A DNA stretch of 64,000 bases from a virus (Duplodnaviria; Caudoviricetes), in the IMG/VR virus record IMGVR_UViG_3300040935_000019, positions 809 to 64,808 of that record; one strand, given 5' to 3'. The notes under the pieces are model-generated. The model was given only the letters and a program-made list of their open reading frames with translations, was not told where the DNA came from and did no database searches. This document shows, in pieces, positions 4,489 through 41,423 of the stretch. Numbering within the stretch: position 1 is the stretch's first letter; each line of letters starts with the position of its first letter. Made by a program: the position numbers and the translations under genes.

Positions 4489-6399
4489 TTAATACATTCC
4501 AAAAACTACCTTCATTTGCAAAATAGTTGGCTTAATCTTGTAGTTAATATTTTGAAGAAATACCCAAAGATTAAAAAACTCGGTATCTACATTCCTATAT
4601 GTATTAGGAATAGATGTGCACGCATCTTTATCCTTTACAAATATTAAGTTATTAGAATCAAAGGAATTGCACGAATATAATTCAACATAGCTATTAAACA
4701 AGTTAACAATGTCATCATCTACAATGACAGCTTCCCTAAATTTATCTTTTGAATCGGAACATATATTACCATCATCGCACAGCACGTAATCAAAGAACGA
4801 TTCTGTAAGTCCTTCTATTGGGTTGGAAAATATTAGATCCATAAGCGTATACGCCAAAAGCTTTTGTTTTATTATATCCGGATGAATGTCTTCAGAAAAC
4901 AAATTAGTTGTAGTTGATTGTGAATAGCTGTTAACATCTATTTCTGTACTTGATGAGCTTATGAGAATATTTTTGGAAGCCGCAAAAAATAAAGATGCGG
5001 CAAACTTAAAGGTTTCTTCTAAAGGATAAAAGTATATGTTCCTGCTATCAAAGGTTAGGATATACGCATAGACCGTTAACATTGTAGACAATGTTAAATC
5101 ATTTAAGTGTTTATTCTCACTAAATGTAAAGATAGATGCATTTTTTATGTTATCTAAAAATCTAGAGATGTTGGTAGAATCTTGAGTATAAACATCAAGA
5201 GAGTATATTGGGTTGCTTAATGAGGAAGGTATGTTTATAATTCCTAGGTTATTTAATTGTTTTAAAAAGGAGGCGTATATTTTGGCCCAAGAAAAAACAA
5301 GTAAATATAAGTCGTATTTTTCTCTTTGCGTCAACACTCTTGATGAAGAAGAAAACGTTCCATTGCCTCTTATAATTTCATAAATTGTAGAGCCATCAGA
5401 AAGGATGCTGAGCAAGTAATTATATGTAGAGGCTATTTTTTCTGATGTGTCTTGTAAGTTGGTTGGTACAAAACCAGAATTAAACGTTAGCGGTTTGGAT
5501 ATTTCTGTTAAAGTTAAGTAAATTAAATCGGATATGTATTGCCAAATTGTTGTTTCTTGGTGTAAGGTGGAAACATCTAGAACATAAGAGTTTAAAGAAT
5601 CACTATAGGTAAAAATAATTTTAAATTGTGTTCCTACAAAATCTCCCTGTTTAGTAACCAAATAATTCATCAATTTGTTATCCATTGAGTAGTAGTAAGA
5701 ATCAAAAGAAGCGTTACTTAGTCTAAGTTTTACCCCATTCAGTGGGTACAAGGAAAAGAAATAATTTTTTGCTCTTTCCAAATTTTCTGTAATTAAATCT
5801 AAGGAAAATACTGGGACATAATTTGTTTCTTGTGTGAAAATCCCTACTTGCGGATAATCACTAGAGAGAGTCTGGTAATAACTCCTAGAAAACACTTGGT
5901 GATATGAGTCTATATCGGGATAAATTTTTCGAAAAAAGTGTTTTGACGAGTCCAACAAATCTACTCTAATTATGTATTCTAGCTCTTCATTTGGTCTTAC
6001 ATTCCTTGGTATCAAGATAAACTTTTTTGAAAAAAGATCTGTATCTAAGATTGATCCTATGTACTCTGAATTTTCCGTATAAAAAACCCCTACAAAGAAA
6101 TCGTCCTGATAGGCATCTTCATCTGAAGAAATGCTGTAAGAACCAGACTCGGTTGTCAAAGAAACTCTAAATTTCCTAGAAAACTTTTTATCAGATATTT
6201 TTTTGATCCTTAGAGAGTCTGTAAAGACAAATTTCAAGTAAAAAAACGGAAGATGTTCATTTATTGGATTGCTTATTTTAACCACTATTTCTTTTGAGGG
6301 ATTTTCCTCATCTAAAATTAAATCTTCGTGGGTCAGCGTTTGACCTTTATCTTTACCGTCTAAAATAAGTTGATTAAGGTAAAAAACTTTGGATAACAT
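4489..6399 (-). CDS. Hypothetical (likely virion/baseplate) protein
   Basis: 636-aa ORF in the structural block. Confidence 0.7.
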   Translation of the reverse strand: MLSKVFYLNQLILDGKDKGQTLTHEDLILDEENPSKEIVVKISNPINEHLPFFYLKFVFTDSLRIKKISDKKFSRKFRVSLTTESGSYSISSDEDAYQDDFFVGVFYTENSEYIGSILDTDLFSKKFILIPRNVRPNEELEYIIRVDLLDSSKHFFRKIYPDIDSYHQVFSRSYYQTLSSDYPQVGIFTQETNYVPVFSLDLITENLERAKNYFFSLYPLNGVKLRLSNASFDSYYYSMDNKLMNYLVTKQGDFVGTQFKIIFTYSDSLNSYVLDVSTLHQETTIWQYISDLIYLTLTEISKPLTFNSGFVPTNLQDTSEKIASTYNYLLSILSDGSTIYEIIRGNGTFSSSSRVLTQREKYDLYLLVFSWAKIYASFLKQLNNLGIINIPSSLSNPIYSLDVYTQDSTNISRFLDNIKNASIFTFSENKHLNDLTLSTMLTVYAYILTFDSRNIYFYPLEETFKFAASLFFAASKNILISSSSTEIDVNSYSQSTTTNLFSEDIHPDIIKQKLLAYTLMDLIFSNPIEGLTESFFDYVLCDDGNICSDSKDKFREAVIVDDDIVNLFNSYVELYSCNSFDSNNLIFVKDKDACTSIPNTYRNVDTEFFNLWVFLQNINYKIKPTILQMKVVFGMY

Positions 6400-19204: not shown

Positions 19205-19287
19205 TTTCTTCCTCCAAACTGAATTATACTACGAAATCTTTTAAAGCTTAAATTAAGGCTCAAGATGAACCCTGCATTTACGTTCCT

Positions 19288-19316
19288 ATAGTACCATGAG
19301 CCCCTGGGTTTGTCAA
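19288..19316 (-). promoter_or_regulatory. Sigma70-type promoter TTGACA-17-TACTAT
   Basis: Consensus hexamers with a 17-nt spacer, upstream of the chaperone/redox operon. Confidence 0.75.
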
Positions 19317-19323
19317 GCATGTT

Positions 19324-19971
19324 TCATCCACACTTTGAATAGCCGCAATCTAAGCACGTAAAACACCCCTCACTTAATACTGCATTGTTAGAAGAACAAG
19401 AAGGACACGTCAACCCGCTATTTTTAGTTTGTTTAGCTTTTTCTGTCTTTTCTTCTTCCTTAACTTCGTTAGATGAAGCAAGATTGCTATCTAATGTATC
19501 GTTGTTATTTATTAATCTACTTAGAGAATCAAAATTTCCATAGAACATTAGCACTTTCGCTAACAAATCAGGAATAGACTTTATAAACTTACTCTTTTTT
19601 TGCATTGGGAATTTAACAAGAGCAGAAGTCCCAGAATCAAGTCCATCTAAGTGTTTTATGATCTTTTCAATAGGAACCCTATACTTCAACTGATTGCTTA
19701 TCATTCTCGCCAGTGCCTGAATGTAGGCATTGATTTCTGGCGATGTTGATGAGGCGTTTACAAATATCTCTAACAATCTCTTTTCTTCATCAAAATTGAG
19801 CGTTATGTAAAACGAGTGGTCAAGATATTTAATCTTAATCGTATATCCAAACACTACATCATTCCTTACTAAAGTTTCTCTTTCTTTAACAGTTTCTTTT
19901 GATCCTCCTTCAATTTGCTTATCTTCTACAAGCTCAAACCTTATTATTTTTCCCTTTAGCTCGTACAACAT
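19324..19971 (-). CDS. Class II RNR small C-terminal subunit (TSCPD domain plus Zn ribbon, NrdJb-like)
   Basis: KSIPDLLAK, CPSC...EGCFTCLDCGYSKCG. Confidence 0.85.
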   Translation of the reverse strand: MLYELKGKIIRFELVEDKQIEGGSKETVKERETLVRNDVVFGYTIKIKYLDHSFYITLNFDEEKRLLEIFVNASSTSPEINAYIQALARMISNQLKYRVPIEKIIKHLDGLDSGTSALVKFPMQKKSKFIKSIPDLLAKVLMFYGNFDSLSRLINNNDTLDSNLASSNEVKEEEKTEKAKQTKNSGLTCPSCSSNNAVLSEGCFTCLDCGYSKCG

Positions 19972-26490: not shown

Positions 26491-26566
26491 TGGCGGGCCT
26501 GGAGGGATTTGAACCCCCGACCTAGCGGTTAGAAGCCGCTTGCTCTATCCCCTGAGCTACAGGCCC
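26491..26566 (-). tRNA. tRNA-Arg(TCT)
   Basis: 76 nt; GGGCCTG/CAGGCCC acceptor, CT-TCT-AA loop, GTTCAAATC T-loop, encoded CCA. Confidence 0.95.
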
Positions 26567-30148: not shown

Positions 30149-30224
30149 TGGCAGACCGTGTGGGACTCGAACCCACAACCCCCGGTTTTGGAGACCGGTG
30201 CTCTGCCAATTGAGCTAACGGCCC
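30149..30224 (-). tRNA. tRNA-Trp(CCA)
   Basis: 76 nt; CCGGT-CTCCAAA-ACCGG anticodon arm, G discriminator, encoded CCA. Confidence 0.95.
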
Positions 30225-32006: not shown

Positions 32007-32083
32007 TGGTGGGCCAGGTAGGACTTGAACCTACAACCAACCGGTTATGAGCCGGACGCTCTAACCAATTGAGCTACTGGCCC
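32007..32083 (-). tRNA. tRNA with CAT anticodon, probably Ile2 (lysidine) rather than Met
   Basis: 77 nt; GGGCCAG/CTGGCCC acceptor (C4-G69 and C5-G68, as in TilS substrates), CT-CAT-AA loop, no initiator features. Confidence 0.9.
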
Positions 32084-32512: not shown

Positions 32513-33886
32513 TTACATTATTTTGCCAGAGAACCCGCATGCGGCCTCCTCCCACAACTGGGCTTCCTCCTTCATCGAGGGAACATTAACACGAATATAG
32601 GGATTAGACCCAAATATTCGTGTTAAAGCTTCCCTCTCCAGAGGCGTAAGTTCGGGGCGGCCCACCCCTACGACATCCTCAGAACTCAGACCAAGTCCCT
32701 TTTTCAAAATCACCAATGCCGCATTAATATCTCTATCACACTCCCAACCGCATTCGCATTTAAATACTCGTTCAGAAAGTTTTATCTCGTTTAATTTTCC
32801 GCAAACAACGCATTCCTTAGTAGTTATTTCAAACCTTCCAACTGGAACAACGTTATCAAGGTTATTTTTTATTCTTGCTTTTATTGAACCTATTCCTGAA
32901 GAATTAACTTGAGCGCCGAAAAGTTTTGTCCATCCGTGAATATTGTCTTCTTGGTATACGACTTTTTCGTAATTTTTTAGAAACGCAATTATCCTATCGT
33001 GTACATCTTTGCGTTTTCTACTAATTTTCTCATATTCTCTTTTCAAGAGATCAATAATCTTTTGCCTATTCTTTGAACCTTTTTGCACTCGTGAAAGTTT
33101 TTTATGTAGTCTTTTTAGACGTTTAGTTTCCTTCAACTCAAAATTCAACTTTATCCCGTTAGACATAGTCAATTTAGAACTAACTCCAAAATCTATAGAT
33201 ACTGGACCAAACTTTTGTCGTCTATTAACCTCCTCTTTTGGTACAAAACAATTCAAATAAACATAATAGCCGCTTGGTTTACTGATCAAAGAAGCGGTTG
33301 CTATTTCTGCATCGGCAGGAATTCTATGTAATCCAAGAACACGGAAAGATCCGAGTTTTTGTATCTTTATCCTATTTCTTGAAAAGTCTATAGTGTGAGT
33401 GCTTCCGTATTGTTTTAGAGGTATAGAACTTATAAACGACTTAAATTTCAGTCTTCCGATTTTTTGTCCATTATTTTTTGCGGCTTTTAGAGATTTTAGG
33501 CTTCTTTTCACTTCATCCGCTAAAGCCTGCTTGACTTGTGAACCTAACAAAATAAGTTCCCTTTCTTCAAAACTATCTCCAACCTTGACTTCTACCCTAT
33601 TAATCTTATTAACTGGAAGCTTAACTCTTTCAATATCGGAAATTAACCAATTATAAAACCACTTTGCTTCAAGAAAAACTCTTTTCAACTCTTCTTCTTT
33701 CTTCTTTGAAAGATTTTGTATTTTCAATTCCACAACAAAAGGAGTTTGATTTTTTCTACGTTCTTTCGTTTCCTGAATAGCCGCTTTTATCTTTTCGTTT
33801 CTCGCCTTTATTTTTGCCTCAAGTGCCTCTTGATTTTTGATGTCAAAAATGCTATTGTTAGGTTCCTGTTTAGTTAGGTAGTCCAT
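32513..33886 (-). CDS. tnpB: TnpB RNA-guided nuclease (IS200/IS605/IS1341-type)
   Basis: RuvC-I SIDFG, RuvC-II YQED, Zn finger CVVCG..CECG, RuvC-III DRDINAA; all three acidic residues present; no tnpA nearby. Confidence 0.92.
   Translation of the reverse strand: MDYLTKQEPNNSIFDIKNQEALEAKIKARNEKIKAAIQETKERRKNQTPFVVELKIQNLSKKKEEELKRVFLEAKWFYNWLISDIERVKLPVNKINRVEVKVGDSFEERELILLGSQVKQALADEVKRSLKSLKAAKNNGQKIGRLKFKSFISSIPLKQYGSTHTIDFSRNRIKIQKLGSFRVLGLHRIPADAEIATASLISKPSGYYVYLNCFVPKEEVNRRQKFGPVSIDFGVSSKLTMSNGIKLNFELKETKRLKRLHKKLSRVQKGSKNRQKIIDLLKREYEKISRKRKDVHDRIIAFLKNYEKVVYQEDNIHGWTKLFGAQVNSSGIGSIKARIKNNLDNVVPVGRFEITTKECVVCGKLNEIKLSERVFKCECGWECDRDINAALVILKKGLGLSSEDVVGVGRPELTPLEREALTRIFGSNPYIRVNVPSMKEEAQLWEEAACGFSGKIM
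32542..32671 (-). ncRNA. Cis omegaRNA (reRNA) scaffold overlapping the tnpB 3' end
   Basis: GC-rich structured block GTAGGGGTGGGCCGCCCCGAAC...GAAGCCCAGTTGTGGGAGGAGGCC at the position expected for a TnpB omegaRNA; long internal hairpin TTAACACGAATAT/ATATTCGTGTTAA. Confidence 0.8.
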
Positions 33887-33893
33887 GACAAAA

Positions 33894-33922
33894 ACAGTAC
33901 ACCATTAGGTTTTCTTTGTCAA
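33894..33922 (-). promoter_or_regulatory. Promoter TTGACA-17-TACTGT, 7 nt before the tnpB ATG (leaderless)
   Basis: Read directly from the sequence; no SD. Confidence 0.65.
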
Positions 33923-38915: not shown

Positions 38916-40197
38916 GAAAGAAGAATTAACATTGCCGAATGGAAAAAAGATAATCTTTTTTTCTTATAAAGCTAATCTCCCATTGAAGCTTTTTAAAGAA
39001 GAAACTCCCTCCGTTTTACAAAAAGAATTTTTTGAGAAGAATTGGATTTCCGTTCTTACCGGTATATCCAATATAAATGAGCCAGAAAACTCAAATAAAT
39101 TTGAGAAGAATAAACCAGGAGAAAAAGTAGATGATGATGTTGAAAAGGAGCCGGTTTCATTAAAAGACAAGATTGGAAAGATTAAGAGCGAATTGGAGAA
39201 AACAAGGAGTCAGTTGAAGGAATTAACAAGAGATGTAGACTTGCCTTATAGAGAAATTCCTTTAGGTGAAGCGGAACTTTTAAATAAAATTCTTTCTGAG
39301 TTATACAAAGATGAAGAAAAGTTTTCCGAAGTTATAAAGATTATAGAAAACAACCTTAAGGAAAAAGGAGCAACAGGGACAATTTCTATACTCAGAAAAT
39401 ACAATATCTTTTCGAAAATATTATTTAAATGGGAAGAGAAAAGAAAATCACAATATTCTGAGTACTTCAAATTTGTTAAAACCCCCAGTTTTCCAACTAA
39501 CTTATCTTTCATAGATCCTAGGGAATATAAAAAGCTTCCTGAAATGTTTAAAGGAACTATTCTAATCTCTGAAATAGAACACCCAGTTTACATAAAAAAT
39601 ATTGAGGACTTATATTATGCTAGCGAGAAAAATGTAGATGCGATATTATCTATTTTAAAAGATCATGTAGAACCGAAGATCTTGGACATACAAACCGTTA
39701 GAGTTGTTAAAACAAAGAAAGTCTTTAATGAGTTGACTGTAGACTATAAAACCTACTTGAATGTTTTTGAGAATTTCGCCCGAAATGCTAAGAACGAATT
39801 AATCAAAGACTTCGTCTATAGAGTTCTTTTGTTTCCTGCAGTTCTTACTGAAATAACAGAAAACTTTGTTCCTATAGAAAAAAGTTCAGTTTATTACATT
39901 TTGAACACCTTTTATTTATCACTTTACGATGCTATTTATTTAAAGAATAAATCGTACCAAGAGATTTCTCAATACTTTTTAAGCAGAGAAGAAAGGTTTA
40001 GTGTTTATAAGGATGTGCTAAAGACAAAAAGGCATTTATTTTCTGATTTTTATGAGTTTACTAAACTAATAAAAAATAAGTACCAACAACAGGTTAACTT
40101 TTTAGAGTTTTGTGTTTTTTGGAATAAGTACATTTCTATTAGTTCAATAGTAACGCCAGTTACAATTGCAGGCGAGTTCGGGACGCTTGACATATGA
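38896..40197 (+). CDS. Hypothetical protein
   Basis: 433 aa; overlaps the upstream gene. Confidence 0.7.
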   Translation: MKMIPFEKEELTLPNGKKIIFFSYKANLPLKLFKEETPSVLQKEFFEKNWISVLTGISNINEPENSNKFEKNKPGEKVDDDVEKEPVSLKDKIGKIKSELEKTRSQLKELTRDVDLPYREIPLGEAELLNKILSELYKDEEKFSEVIKIIENNLKEKGATGTISILRKYNIFSKILFKWEEKRKSQYSEYFKFVKTPSFPTNLSFIDPREYKKLPEMFKGTILISEIEHPVYIKNIEDLYYASEKNVDAILSILKDHVEPKILDIQTVRVVKTKKVFNELTVDYKTYLNVFENFARNAKNELIKDFVYRVLLFPAVLTEITENFVPIEKSSVYYILNTFYLSLYDAIYLKNKSYQEISQYFLSREERFSVYKDVLKTKRHLFSDFYEFTKLIKNKYQQQVNFLEFCVFWNKYISISSIVTPVTIAGEFGTLDI

Positions 40198-40215
40198 CGG
40201 TACATGTGCTAATAT
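40187..40215 (+). promoter_or_regulatory. Promoter TTGACA-17-TAATAT
   Basis: Consensus hexamers with an extended TG. Confidence 0.75.
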
Positions 40216-40235
40216 AGCCCTGGAGGTGATGAGAG

Positions 40236-40505
40236 ATGTCCTTGAGGCTAAACCCATACACAGGAAAATACGAGTTCGCCGAAGATGATATGGGGATTAC
40301 TTACAACGAATTTGAGAGGAAGTACGAGTACGGTTACAATAATGTCAGAGAAACTAATCCATTCAACATGAGAATTTCCTCTAAAGGAAGGGTTCCGAAG
40401 TACAATCCTTATACCGGAGAGTGGGAAACTGTACCCGAACATTGGGTCATTAGGTACAATCCTTACGAAAGGAAATATCAGTATGGACCCCCAGATTGGG
40501 AATAA
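40236..40505 (+). CDS. Small protein of YNPY-type repeats
   Basis: LNPYTGKYE, YNEFERKYE, TNPF, YNPYTGEWE, YNPYERKYQ; GGAGGT SD. Confidence 0.8.
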   Translation: MSLRLNPYTGKYEFAEDDMGITYNEFERKYEYGYNNVRETNPFNMRISSKGRVPKYNPYTGEWETVPEHWVIRYNPYERKYQYGPPDWE

Positions 40506-40556
40506 AAAATGTTGATAAATAACATTTATAGTTCAAAAAGTTATAGTATAAGTTCA

Positions 40557-40642
40557 GTAGGGGTGGGCCGCCCCGAATTCACGCCCCTGGAGAGAGGTAA
40601 ATCTCTCGATGAAGGGGGAAGCCCACAAGTGGGAGGAGGTCA
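40557..40642 (+). ncRNA. Stand-alone, shortened TnpB omegaRNA scaffold
   Basis: Colinear near-copy of 32542-32671 with the long hairpin reduced to GAGAGA-GGTAAA-TCTCTC; -10-like TAGTAT lies 7 nt upstream of the first homologous base. Confidence 0.8.
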
Positions 40643-40774
40643 TCCTTGGGACGCTATATTTTTCCATTGTGGGAGGAGGTCATGCTTCCATGGAAGGGAA
40701 GCCAGAAAAGTTATCCCGTTTGTGGGAGGAGGTCAAGAGGAGACATCTGGGGGTTGTTGACGTGGAAGAAGCCA
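40629..40774 (+). CRISPR. CRISPR-like mini-array built from the omegaRNA 3' end
   Basis: GTGGGAGGAGGTCA at 40629, 40669 and 40722 (identical) and degenerate GTGGAAGAAGCCA at 40762; unique spacers of 26, 39 and 26 nt. Confidence 0.65.
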
Positions 40775-40799
40775 CTAAATCAAGAATGGAGGAACGAAA

Positions 40800-41423
40800 A
40801 TGGACCAAAATAGGAACAAATCTAAATTGGTAAATCAAGATATTAATCTCAGAAATTTAGATAACTTGTCTTATAGAGATGCACTTAAATTATTAACCAA
40901 ACCTTTTCCAATTTCTGCAATTCAATTTCGTCCAGATAGAGAGGTTAATGTTTCCGGTAAAAAGTTTTATAAAGTTGTTCCGTATCTTGACACCAGATAC
41001 ATAGTCTTAAGGCTTAACAATGTTGTTCCAGGAAATTGGAATTTAGAAACAAAAGTTTTTCCTATTTCTCAAAATGAAAAAAATGTTTACGGGTTTTACG
41101 CTACATCTACATTAACAATTTTAGGTGTTTCACATTCTGATGTTGGATCGTCTTTTATTCTTGAAAATGATTTAGACAAGTTGAAGAGGCAACAAGTGAA
41201 GCTGGATCCAAAAAGTGCAGTAACAGATTCTATAAGAAGGGTTGCCGCACTTCATGGAATTGGTCTGTATCTATGGTTCTTAAAAAAGGATCTTTTGGTA
41301 GAAGATTTAAGAGAATTAACAGATAAGTCTAGAAAAGTTGTTGAGTACGCAAAATATATTTTAGATGTAGGAAGGCTTTTATACGAGAAGGGCCTAGAAA
41401 TGTCTTTTGGAGAGGAAATATGA
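40800..41423 (+). CDS. Rad52/Sak-like single-strand annealing protein
   Basis: LTKPFP..IQFR, YLDTRYIVLRLN..PGNW, DVG, KSAVTDSIRRVAALHGIGLYLW. Confidence 0.85.
   Translation: MDQNRNKSKLVNQDINLRNLDNLSYRDALKLLTKPFPISAIQFRPDREVNVSGKKFYKVVPYLDTRYIVLRLNNVVPGNWNLETKVFPISQNEKNVYGFYATSTLTILGVSHSDVGSSFILENDLDKLKRQQVKLDPKSAVTDSIRRVAALHGIGLYLWFLKKDLLVEDLRELTDKSRKVVEYAKYILDVGRLLYEKGLEMSFGEEI

What the first reader, a model, noticed from the sequence alone, without database searches (positions are those of the whole stretch)
40544..40774. Stand-alone TnpB omegaRNA fused to a CRISPR-like multi-guide array in a phage
Seen: 40557-40642 is a colinear copy of the structured RNA at the tnpB 3' end (32542-32671, opposite strand, about 8 kb away), with no tnpB attached. 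Its last 14 nt, GTGGGAGGAGGTCA, recur exactly at 40629, 40669 and 40722 and degenerately at 40762, separated by unrelated 26, 39 and 26 nt segments. The periods (40, 53, 40) are not multiples of 3, so this is not a protein repeat. A -10-like TAGTAT sits 7 nt before the first homologous base. Known: in IS200/IS605 TnpB the guide follows the scaffold 3' end directly, and Cas12 crRNA repeats are thought to derive from that end. Inference: one scaffold acts like a tracrRNA (its CCCAC can pair with the GTGGG of any repeat) and serves several repeat-guide units in trans to the phage TnpB. That would be a minimal multiplexed RNA-guided system, a TnpB-to-Cas12 intermediate, aimed at host or competitor DNA. 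I saw no spacer match inside this window.
Basis: partly seen in the sequence, partly recalled or inferred. Interest (0 to 1): 0.92.

Follow-up and report, generated by a model that had tools for sequence, protein, structure and literature searches.

The report
Orphan TnpB guide-RNA with mini-array
A hot-spring phage carries, 8 kb from its TnpB nuclease gene, a protein-less copy of that nuclease's guide-RNA scaffold whose last ~15 letters recur three more times with different sequence in between, which looks like a CRISPR-type guide array caught at birth, but its use is unproven.

Summary
Window 40557-40643 is a stand-alone, internally trimmed copy of the omegaRNA (right-end RNA) scaffold that overlaps the 3' end of the phage tnpB (32541-32705, minus strand). 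Its last 14 nt recur exactly at 40669 and 40722. The fourth copy at 40762 is weak.

The scaffold family has a covariation-supported fold. In mobile relatives the flanks diverge right after GGAGGAGGYCAY, so the repeat is the scaffold's guide-adjacent handle.

A syntenic relative phage (L004) carries the homologous cassette at a different locus, behind a strong promoter. Its scaffold and second repeat are conserved, but the 23-24 nt between them is unrelated, as expected of a guide. Contigs of a diverged relative from an RNA library show two extra repeat-spacer units.

- The window copy lacks the 5' hairpin and the 5' strand of the closing helix.
- Predicted trans pairing is no better than shuffled controls.
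- The segment after repeat 2 is conserved.
- No targets were found.
- Close relatives are invariant.

Verdict: a trans-acting orphan guide-RNA cassette with a proto-array made by serial duplication of its 3' handle. Multiplex use is unproven. It is a new variant of a known kind (stand-alone omegaRNAs, TranC). This scan has noted similar phage TnpB arrays on other DNA.

The parts
40187..40215 (+). TTGACA-17-TAATAT promoter-like site upstream of the 89-aa ORF. It is the nearest strong same-strand promoter, so the element is probably co-transcribed with 40236-40505, erf and recA.
   Evidence: regex listing of 13 TTGACA-N16-18-TAnnnT sites in the window. No terminator-like site in 40200-41000.
40519..40547 (+). 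Weak promoter-like site ATAACA-17-TATAGT.
   Evidence: 9 of 12 matches; not above the shuffle expectation.
40557..40643 (+). Stand-alone omegaRNA scaffold, 87 nt. P1: 40560-40565 with 40569-40574. P2: 40584-40588 with 40614-40618. P3: 40592-40596 with 40603-40607. P4: 40622-40625 with 40630-40633. Handle/repeat 1: 40629-40643. It lacks P0 and the 5' strand of the closing helix.
40644..40666 (+). Segment 1, the candidate guide (23 nt). It is unrelated to the 24-nt segment at the same place in the L004 cassette.
   Evidence: (12 matches of 24, shuffle mean 11.6), while the flanks match 75 of 87 and 28 of 34.
40667..40683 (+). Repeat 2 (TTGTGGGAGGAGGTCAT).
   Evidence: Conserved in L004.
40684..40719 (+). 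Segment 2 (36 nt). Its first ~17 nt are conserved in L004. It contains GGGAAGCC, identical to scaffold 40616-40623.
40720..40736 (+). Repeat 3 (TTGTGGGAGGAGGTCAA), preceded by CCCG, which can close a small P4-like hairpin.
40737..40761 (+). Segment 3 (25 nt), unique. Its ATCTGGGGGT is complementary to 40487-40496.
   Evidence: (I6).
40762..40775 (+). Decayed repeat 4 (GTGGAAGAAGCCAC). It ends in CCAC, like the right-end tip of the mobile relatives.
   Evidence: Read. Not found at up to 3 mismatches.
32541..32705 (-). Full-length omegaRNA scaffold overlapping the 3' end of tnpB. Its handle is GTGGGAGGAGGCCGC, and the flank starts at 32540.
   Evidence: 145 bits.
32513..33886 (-). tnpB (457 aa): OrfB_IS605 plus TNB zinc-finger domains. 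RuvC acidic residues align with those of ISDra2 TnpB.
33894..33922 (-). TTGACA-17-TACTGT promoter directly upstream of tnpB. There is no transposon left end.
19205..19326 (-). Orthologous site of the L004 cassette. The same TTGACA-17-TACTAT promoter (19316-19288) and a remnant of scaffold hairpin P0 (19266-19245) are kept, but P1 through the repeats are absent.

Best explanation
This is an orphan guide-RNA cassette of the phage's own TnpB. It is a protein-less copy of the IS200/IS605-type omegaRNA scaffold, and its guide-adjacent 3' handle has been duplicated serially. The handle consists of the 3' arm of the last hairpin, the AGGAGG stretch, and the terminal TCAT that corresponds to the transposon's right-end cleavage motif. 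The result is a short proto-array: three exact copies and one decayed copy, each followed by a different 23-36 nt segment.

Shown: homology, the conserved fold, the position of the scaffold end, replacement of segment 1 between homologous cassettes, and unit number differences in relatives.

Inferred: the locus is transcribed within the 40187-promoter operon (89-aa ORF, cassette, erf, recA). TnpB made 8 kb away binds scaffold plus segment 1 in trans and uses segment 1 as a guide against DNA outside this fragment (host or a competing element). The downstream units are young or partly decayed products of recombination between handles. At most they are used weakly, as extra guides that need the rest of a scaffold supplied by another RNA.
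For: Scaffold identity. The fold is under selection: across 11 family members 96.5% of cells are paired and 15 of 36 pairs show changes on both sides (0 of 500 shuffles reach this; slid controls reach at most 4).

The scaffold ends at GGAGGAGGYCAY and unrelated flanks follow it in 5 tnpB-borne copies at distinct sites. None of 6 mobile or truncated Aquificae-type copies has a second handle within 170 nt.

L004 is a syntenic relative: 17 of 17 ORFs match window 14.8-28.8 kb at 62-93% aa identity. Its cassette has a TTGACA-17-TACTAT promoter with TG, a complete scaffold and two handles. Window against L004: scaffold 75 of 87 identical without gaps, repeat 2 region 28 of 34, but the segment between them 12 of 24, which equals the shuffle mean of 11.6.

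TnpB has catalytic residues aligned to 8exa and 8h1j.

The island is exceptional for this genome. GGAGGAGG occurs 8 times on both strands of a 34% GC window, and 4 of those are omegaRNA handles.

DNA contigs of three other samples span 40438-40949. Within 40557-40799 they differ only at 40580, 40608 and 40795. The first two lie in unpaired linkers, and there is no change in 40609-40794.

Contigs from one RNA library, of a relative 90-95% identical, show two extra units (tables 5c and 8). One has 32 new letters after repeat 1, followed by a 28-nt repeat starting at 40616. The other has 23 new letters between two copies of repeat 3.

Literature (passages read):
- Stand-alone omegaRNAs work in trans with compatible effectors, and arrays may arise by serial duplication of omegaRNA segments (PMC10691335).
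- PATE-borne omegaRNAs need TnpB in trans (PMC10055086).
- The ISDra2 omegaRNA is a natural sgRNA with a crRNA-like 3' region (PMC10097598).
Against: The window copy is 5'-truncated. It lacks hairpin P0 and the 5' strand of the closing helix that L004, L011, L013 and all tnpB-borne copies keep. It scores 89 bits against 113-203 for the others. By analogy with the ISDra2 pseudoknot this could cripple it.

Its own promoter is weak and not above chance.

No protospacer was found for any segment:
- window and all held loci (only self hits and chance-level hits);
- 50,697 phage records (best E 0.1, unrelated hosts);
- 72,556 plasmids;
- IMG/VR exact 20-mer of segment 1;
- the L004, L011 and L013 guides against phages.

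The whole-region fold is not unusual (z -1.0). The repeat-2 region has no significant hairpin (z 0.0 and -0.8).

The close relatives are only 1-2% diverged, so their invariance says little.

The RNA-library contigs are low depth (about 4), may contain DNA, and may come from more than one genome.
Confidence: 0.45

Rival explanations
1. This is a working multiplexed system in which one scaffold acts like a tracrRNA and each 14-17 nt repeat plus the following segment is a crRNA-like unit loaded into TnpB. The locus would then supply three or four guides against host or competitor DNA.
For: The repeat corresponds in position to the crRNA-like part of a TnpB guide RNA. Three copies are exact although the sequence between them is unrelated. 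Segment lengths are guide-sized (23-36 nt). Unit number differs in a diverged relative while the window's repeat 2, segment 2, repeat 3 and segment 3 are kept at about 94% (records 4 and 5). No substitution in 40609-40794 in three other samples. TranC systems show that reRNA splitting into tracrRNA and crRNA works in nature, including in a phage (10.64898/2026.03.27.714800, passages).
Against: Only 4-5 bp (CCCA(C) with (G)UGGG) are available for trans pairing. The 5' strand of the closing helix is absent from the stand-alone scaffold. Dimer energies with either scaffold are not better than shuffled units at 37 or 65 C. Segment 2 is conserved between the window and L004 (13 of its first 17 nt) and is partly scaffold-like. 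Repeat 4 is decayed. No targets found. The repeats are far shorter than the 32-38 bp of TranC arrays.
Confidence: 0.2
2. A non-functional relic. The locus is the decaying remainder of transposon right ends. It would be a 5'-truncated scaffold plus scars of recombination or slippage between right-end tips, carried passively in an intergenic region.
For: No left end, no tnpA and no cas1 in the three records (all are fragments). The window copy is 5'-truncated. The orthologous L004 site in the window keeps only the promoter and P0, which shows that these cassettes are being broken up. Repeat 4 is decayed. RNA-library contigs show head-to-tail and partial duplications of different extents (tables 5 and 5c), as expected of recombination-prone repeats. 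No targets found.
Against: The G-rich island persists in a 34% GC phage. The fold shows compensatory changes, including between the two stand-alone phage copies (GAGAG/CTCTC against GAGAA/TTCTC). Three 14-mers are exact while the intervening sequence is unrelated. Within the 243-nt element there are 3 differences, against 10 in the 459 flanking, mostly coding nt, in the same contig of run X2. Segment 1 has been exchanged cleanly, with its length kept at 23-24 nt.
Confidence: 0.25
3. A leader element of the erf-recA operon. The GGAGGAGG repeats would act as ribosome-binding or standby sites for short peptides, or as protein-binding iterons, with the omegaRNA origin being incidental.
For: Each handle is a strong Shine-Dalgarno look-alike. 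TTG at 40646 and ATG at 40681 open a 55-aa frame (40646-40813) that overlaps the erf start at 40800. The locus sits directly upstream of erf.
Against: In L004 the homologous repeat 2 is read in a different frame, and the frame after it stops after 4 codons (read), so no peptide is conserved. The periods are 40 and 53 nt. erf has its own GGAGG 6 nt upstream of its ATG. Erf relatives at 42-51% identity have only a short promoter-bearing spacer there (5 of 5 loci). GGAGGAGG is not this phage's usual ribosome site (8 occurrences against 104 of GGAGG).
Confidence: 0.05

Closest known systems
Stand-alone (effector-less) omegaRNAs and PATE-like non-autonomous IS200/IS605 elements (described in PMC10691335 and PMC10055086; passages read)
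   Same: A guide-RNA scaffold without a protein gene, in the same genome as a compatible TnpB, expected to be used in trans. Sequence and fold are shared with the tnpB-borne right end.
   Different: There is no left end or TAM-flanked insertion, so it is not an intact mobile PATE. It lies inside a phage operon. It is 5'-truncated. It is followed by further copies of its 3' handle.
TranC / young type V CRISPR arrays (Jin et al. 2025, known to me only through bioRxiv 10.64898/2026.03.27.714800, passages, and PDB entries 9jfo/9jfq named LaTranC)
   Same: A TnpB-type effector, with guide units whose repeat derives from the 3' part of the right-end RNA. Arrays are small, lack Cas1-Cas2, and occur in phages too.
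   Different: Repeats are 14-19 nt, not 32-38 bp. The array is 8 kb from the effector on the other strand. No demonstrable anti-repeat. The effector keeps its own complete omegaRNA and matches LaTranC only weakly, over its C-terminal 65 residues (E 2e-4).
ISDra2 TnpB-omegaRNA (PDB 8exa, 8bf8, 8h1j; PMC10097598)
   Same: The protein aligns over residues 133-398 with the acidic RuvC residues in place. The RNA has the same logic: several stems, a last hairpin, a short crRNA-like 3' strand that pairs with a 5' strand, then the guide.
   Different: The RNA sequence is not comparable. The closing helix here is predicted only, with no double-sided covariation (helix 1). The last hairpin is only 4 bp in the phage copies.
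Irregular omegaRNA-like arrays with repeats over 60 bp (PMC10691335, passage)
   Same: Arrays built from omegaRNA segments, with a sharp scaffold/guide boundary and no adaptation genes.
   Different: Here only the last 14-28 nt of the scaffold are repeated.

Membership tests
TnpB omegaRNA / reRNA scaffold (IS200/IS605) | Sequence and secondary structure shared with the RNA encoded at the 3' end of a tnpB gene | tested here: met
   (89 bits, E 2e-25).
TnpB omegaRNA / reRNA scaffold (IS200/IS605) | Scaffold ends at the transposon right end and is followed directly by variable (guide) sequence | tested here: met
   Flanks of 5 tnpB-borne copies diverge after GGAGGAGGCCAC. Segment 1 is unrelated between the window and L004.
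TnpB omegaRNA / reRNA scaffold (IS200/IS605) | Complete scaffold, including the 5' hairpin and the strand that closes onto the guide-adjacent end | tested here: not met
   The window copy has unrelated AT-rich sequence in alignment columns 1-43. The unpaired cells of helices 1 and 2 are mostly this copy.
TnpB omegaRNA / reRNA scaffold (IS200/IS605) | A cognate, catalytically intact TnpB in the same genome | tested here: met
TnpB omegaRNA / reRNA scaffold (IS200/IS605) | RNA is made, bound by TnpB and guides DNA cleavage | not testable with these tools
   There are only contigs from an RNA library that may hold DNA.
PATE / non-autonomous IS200/IS605 element | Both transposon ends present: a left-end hairpin preceded by the target motif, which is TTTAC in 4 of 4 distinct sites of the related mobile copies | tested here: not met
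   Left ends defined. No such hairpin or TTTAC junction upstream of 40557 or upstream of tnpB.
PATE / non-autonomous IS200/IS605 element | Copies at several sites with precise boundaries | tested here: inconclusive
   The cassette is at different loci in two syntenic phages, but the boundaries are not transposon-like. No Y1 transposase in 3 of 3 fragmentary records.
CRISPR array (including TranC-type) | Direct repeats of CRISPR length (TranC 32-38 bp) | tested here: not met
   14-19 nt. Lengths for TranC.
CRISPR array (including TranC-type) | Three or more repeats separated by unique spacers of similar size | tested here: inconclusive
   Three exact and one decayed repeat. Spacers 26, 39 and 26 nt. 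Segment 2 is partly scaffold-like and conserved.
CRISPR array (including TranC-type) | Spacer content differs between relatives while repeats are kept | tested here: inconclusive
   Segment 1 is replaced in L004. There are two extra units in RNA-library contigs of one sample. Relatives 1-2% diverged are invariant.
CRISPR array (including TranC-type) | Spacers match foreign DNA next to a consistent motif | tested here: not met
   No credible match. Host genomes and hot-spring metagenomes could not be searched for spacers.
CRISPR array (including TranC-type) | Repeat pairs with an anti-repeat of a tracrRNA, or folds on its own | tested here: inconclusive
   4-5 bp possible. Dimer energies are not better than shuffles. 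Pseudoknots and protein are not modelled.
CRISPR array (including TranC-type) | Array adjacent to the effector gene; adaptation genes optional | tested here: not met
   It is 6.7 kb from the tnpB start, on the opposite strand. No Cas1 in 3 of 3 fragmentary records.

The most novel reading that the evidence does not exclude
A natural proto-CRISPR. A phage TnpB would be served in trans by an array whose repeat is only the 14-17 nt crRNA-like handle of its own omegaRNA. The array would grow and shrink by recombination between handles, without Cas1-Cas2, and would give the phage several guides against host or rival DNA. That would be the 'serial duplication of omegaRNA segments' step, proposed for the origin of type V arrays, seen in action and at an earlier stage than TranC.
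Probability: 0.22. Interest if true: 0.85.

Novelty: new variant of a known kind. Interest (0 to 1): 0.58.

Why it matters
How CRISPR arrays first arose from single transposon guide RNAs is still inferred mostly from end states (TnpB, TranC, Cas12). This locus, its L004 homologue and the variants seen in one RNA library offer a small natural series:
- a complete single-guide cassette;
- the same cassette with its handle duplicated;
- versions with duplications of 16, 28 and about 84 nt;
- unit gain or loss with shared segments kept.

If the units are loaded by TnpB, very short handles would suffice for trans guide use by an unmodified TnpB. That bears on the origin of type V systems and on making multiplexed TnpB editors. 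If they are not loaded, the locus still documents how right-end RNAs are broken up and moved within phage genomes.

Tried and rejected
Relatives of the locus:
- The search for related loci with the Erf-like protein alone found none.
- With an alignment of 8 homologues it found 5 loci at 42-51% identity. None has the element upstream of erf.

Array pattern scan of IMG/VR: 45 loci, of which 44 are unrelated, mostly coding Gly/Glu-rich repeats. Only L004 is relevant. Three further IMG/VR scans returned L004 only or nothing.

High-GC hits L006 and L015 are chance matches to the P1 hairpin.

Rfam: nothing in 40400-40900 at E up to 1, and only three tRNAs in the window at gathering score.

Terminator idea for repeat 2: there is no terminator-like site, and the folds are not better than shuffles. 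Only L011 has a solid 9-bp hairpin followed by a U run.

Conserved small protein: the 83-aa frame 40509-40760 and the 71-aa frame in L004 share the scaffold's frame but diverge after it. The frames over repeat 2 differ (and my reading), so this was rejected.

TAGTATAAT as a phage promoter motif: not enriched (17 matches, 34 expected).

Similarity of the 40.5-kb upstream flank to the tail of the L004 cassette is not significant (shuffle fraction 0.10). Its similarity to the 19-kb locus is marginal (0.03).

L013 second CM hit (5390-5499, E 0.005) lies inside an ORF and looks like chance.

Parts of the stretch without cover in X15 are not interpreted. Complex prediction, structure prediction and the atlas were not used, because the protein family is clear. 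Supplementary files of papers are closed. The TranC paper itself, its array tables, and the SI of PMC10691335 on omegaRNA arrays may bear on novelty, and I did not see them. PMC10278001 (TnpB processes its own mRNA) was seen only as a listing and the start of its abstract.
Full report
**What the window is.** The window is 64,000 of the 64,808 bases of an IMG/VR virus record, estimated 42% complete. It has 34% GC. It carries phage replication and recombination genes: RecA/UvsX-like, Erf/Rad52-like, RNA ligase and an IMPDH-like gene. There are weak DNA matches to Thermus phage phiYS40-type recA/erf. Public runs that hold the stretch are hot-spring and sediment metagenomes.

**The observation.** tnpB is 32513-33886 on the minus strand: 457 aa, OrfB_IS605 plus Cas12f1-like TNB domains. 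It aligns to ISDra2 TnpB (8exa, 8h1j) over residues 133-398, with the RuvC acidic residues in place. The RNA-like region at its 3' end reappears at 40557-40643 on the plus strand: 92% over 38 nt and 89% over 35 nt. The distal part of one long hairpin is replaced by a short one. The 14-mer GTGGGAGGAGGTCA is exact at 40629, 40669 and 40722, separated by 26 and 39 nt, and a further 26 nt precede a weak fourth copy at 40762 (and my reading). GGAGGAGG occurs only 8 times on both strands of the window, and 4 of those are in these handles. Only the fourth copy and the 'unrelated' nature of segment 2 need qualification.

**The family and where the scaffold ends.** A 20-nt core pattern found eight metagenome loci. 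Six carry a full tnpB at 54-57% aa identity. Their right ends are alignable up to ...GTGAGGGAGGAGGCCAC and then diverge completely at five distinct sites. So that point is the transposon end, and the guide starts there. Upstream, homology among four distinct insertions begins right after TTTAC, which is the likely target/TAM motif of the mobile relatives (an inference).

An alignment of 11 scaffolds (5 without tnpB, 6 with) gives a consensus fold:
- a 5' strand that closes onto the AGGYC of the 3' tip;
- hairpins P0 and P1;
- a P2/P3 junction;
- a terminal hairpin P4.

Overall 96.5% of cells pair and 15 of 36 pairs change on both sides. None of 500 shuffles reaches this, and slid controls give at most 4. 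The closing helix has only one-sided changes, so it is a prediction. Its position mirrors the pseudoknot of the ISDra2 omegaRNA. There the 3' strand after the last tetraloop is called the crRNA-like region (PMC10097598, passages). The repeated 14-17 nt of the window is exactly this part: the 3' arm of P4, then AGGAGG, then the tip.

**The stand-alone copy is a cassette shared with a related phage.** L004 (an IMG/VR contig) is syntenic with window 14.8-28.8 kb: 17 of 17 ORFs match at 62-93% aa identity. Between its RNR-associated TSCPD gene and a 70-aa gene it carries, in order:
- a TTGACA-17-TACTAT promoter with TG;
- a leader with P0;
- a complete short scaffold;
- handle 1;
- 24 nt;
- a second handle followed by GCCTCCATGG.

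The window and L004 scaffolds are both 87 nt and 75 of 87 identical without gaps. They share the same trimmed P3, with a compensatory change (GAGAG/CTCTC against GAGAA/TTCTC). The repeat-2 region is 28 of 34 identical. The segment in between is no more alike than shuffled sequence (12 matches, shuffle mean 11.6). A constant-length, replaced segment between conserved flanks is what a guide looks like, and it cannot be a mere insertion flank.

At the orthologous site the window keeps the same promoter and a P0 remnant but lacks P1 through the repeats. Its copy at 40.5 kb is the reverse: it has P1 through the repeats but lacks the promoter, P0 and the closing strand. So the cassette has been split, or a paralogue has been truncated, in this lineage. 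I cannot tell which.

**Variation in other samples.** DNA contigs of three other samples span 40438-40949. Inside the element they differ from the window only at 40580 and 40608 (both in unpaired linkers) and at 40795. There is no difference in 40609-40794, while one of these contigs has 7 differences in 40337-40382. These relatives are 1-2% diverged, so this is weak evidence of constraint and says nothing about spacer turnover.

Contigs from one metatranscriptome library are more informative. They are 90-95% identical to the window, at depth about 4, and DNA carry-over is not excluded.
- One contig runs through the scaffold and repeat 1, then has 32 new letters, then resumes at 40616. This adds a unit with a 28-nt repeat next to the scaffold.
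- A second contig covers repeat 2, segment 2 and repeat 3, then has 23 new letters, then resumes at 40720. This adds a unit with a 36-nt period.
- A third contig joins 40644 to 40561 head to tail.

Handles of 16, 28 and about 84 nt have therefore been duplicated in this family. That fits 'serial duplication of omegaRNA segments' (PMC10691335, passage).

**What argues against a working tracr/crRNA array.**
- The cis hairpin P4 is only 4 bp in the phage copies, and the proposed trans pairing is 4-5 bp.
- Predicted dimer energies of the stand-alone or the tnpB-borne scaffold with each unit are no better than with shuffled units at 37 or 65 C.
- The stand-alone scaffold has no sequence able to pair with AGGUC (my reading).
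- Segment 2 starts with 17 nt conserved in L004 and contains GGGAAGCC from the scaffold.
- None of the segments has a credible match in the window and held loci, in phage or plasmid collections, or in IMG/VR. The guides of L004, L011 and L013 have none in phages either.
- Handles are not repeated downstream of any of 6 mobile or truncated Aquificae-type copies. The array is so far confined to one phage lineage's cassette. Window and L004 are not independent instances.

**Other readings.** A conserved peptide or a Shine-Dalgarno function is unlikely. Frames over repeat 2 differ between the two cassettes, erf has its own ribosome site, and more distant Erf loci have only a promoter there. A pure relic remains a serious rival because of the 5' truncation, the decayed fourth repeat and the broken 19-kb locus.

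**Comparison with what is known.** Stand-alone omegaRNAs used in trans, and PATE-borne omegaRNAs, are described. TranC systems show reRNA splitting, small arrays without adaptation genes, and a phage example (I did not see the original paper). This locus is not a member of either class in the strict sense. It has no left end. Its repeats are 14-19 nt rather than 32-38 bp. It is not next to the effector, and no anti-repeat can be shown. It works most like a stand-alone omegaRNA, with a rudimentary array appended.

Earlier notes of this scan describe comparable phage loci on other DNA: a heptamer array behind a phage tnpB, a TranC-like array, and orphan scaffolds in phages. Notes on this genome agree on scaffold covariation and on the left-end-less, promoter-driven tnpB. 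I rechecked the latter two here.

**Verdict.** The feature is real and non-random, and it is a new variant of a known kind. Moderate to high interest as a candidate snapshot of array birth. The multiplex function is unproven, and the specific tracr-like pairing mechanism is not supported by the tests I could run.

Noticed in passing
window 19205-19326 (minus strand): This is the orthologous site of the L004 cassette. It keeps the TTGACA-17-TACTAT promoter and a P0 hairpin remnant (19266-19245), but the rest of the scaffold and the repeats are missing. Only about 12 nt stand where L004 has about 160 nt. Together with the promoter-less, P0-less copy at 40557, it looks as if one cassette was split between two loci.
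   Followed up: partly
window 40487-40496 and 40745-40754: A perfect 10-nt complement (ACCCCCAGAT / ATCTGGGGGT) brackets the whole scaffold and repeats 1-3. One arm lies in the end of the 89-aa ORF and the other in segment 3. By my rough estimate about 0.2 such pairs are expected by chance in 600 nt, so this may be nothing.
   Followed up: no
window 40524-40556 versus 19257-19223 (minus): The AT-rich flank just upstream of the stand-alone scaffold aligns with the 19-kb locus (P0 3' arm, filler, second -10, TTCA). The score is 22 against a shuffle mean of 15.2, fraction 0.03. This is a possible trace of recombination between the two loci.
   Followed up: partly
window 33894-33922 (minus) and 12 other sites: There are thirteen TTGACA-N16-18-TAnnnT promoter-like sites in the window. 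They include ones directly upstream of tnpB, of two tRNA genes (32175, 30112) and of the 89-aa ORF (40187). tnpB has no room for a left end.
   Followed up: partly
window 26494-26566, 30152-30224, 32010-32083 (minus): Three tRNA genes sit close to the tnpB / DUF4926 region.
   Followed up: no
L011:5922-6118: A high-GC stand-alone scaffold (59% GC contig, no tnpB within 10 kb). About 25 nt after its end comes a 9-bp hairpin and a U run (-19.3 kcal/mol). This looks like a tidy single-guide RNA gene with a terminator. The hairpin also resembles a second P4 plus tip.
   Followed up: partly
L009:7567-7693 (minus); same element in L007:7239-7365: A 5'-truncated copy of the mobile element (last codons of tnpB plus a short scaffold) lies 3.7 kb from a full copy. 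It is preceded by a TTGACA.
   Followed up: no
L070:700-950: In a 45%-identity Erf relative, the sequence just upstream of erf carries an opposite-strand ORF end and a GC-rich hairpin (ACACCTAAAGGTGT). This is reminiscent of an insertion-element end at the same genomic position.
   Followed up: no
L017:2576-2631 (minus): A 222-kb viral contig has a roughly 45-nt direct repeat containing GGAATCTCCGTGCTCGCGGAGGAGGTCAATAGCGGTCAATGACC. It is unrelated to the TnpB scaffold and may be a CRISPR-like or regulatory repeat.
   Followed up: no
run X3, record 17: An L004-like stand-alone scaffold, with a first segment different from both the window's and L004's (only 10 letters visible after the handle), sits in a contig of depth about 1750 in a sediment metagenome. 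The carrier is very abundant there.
   Followed up: no
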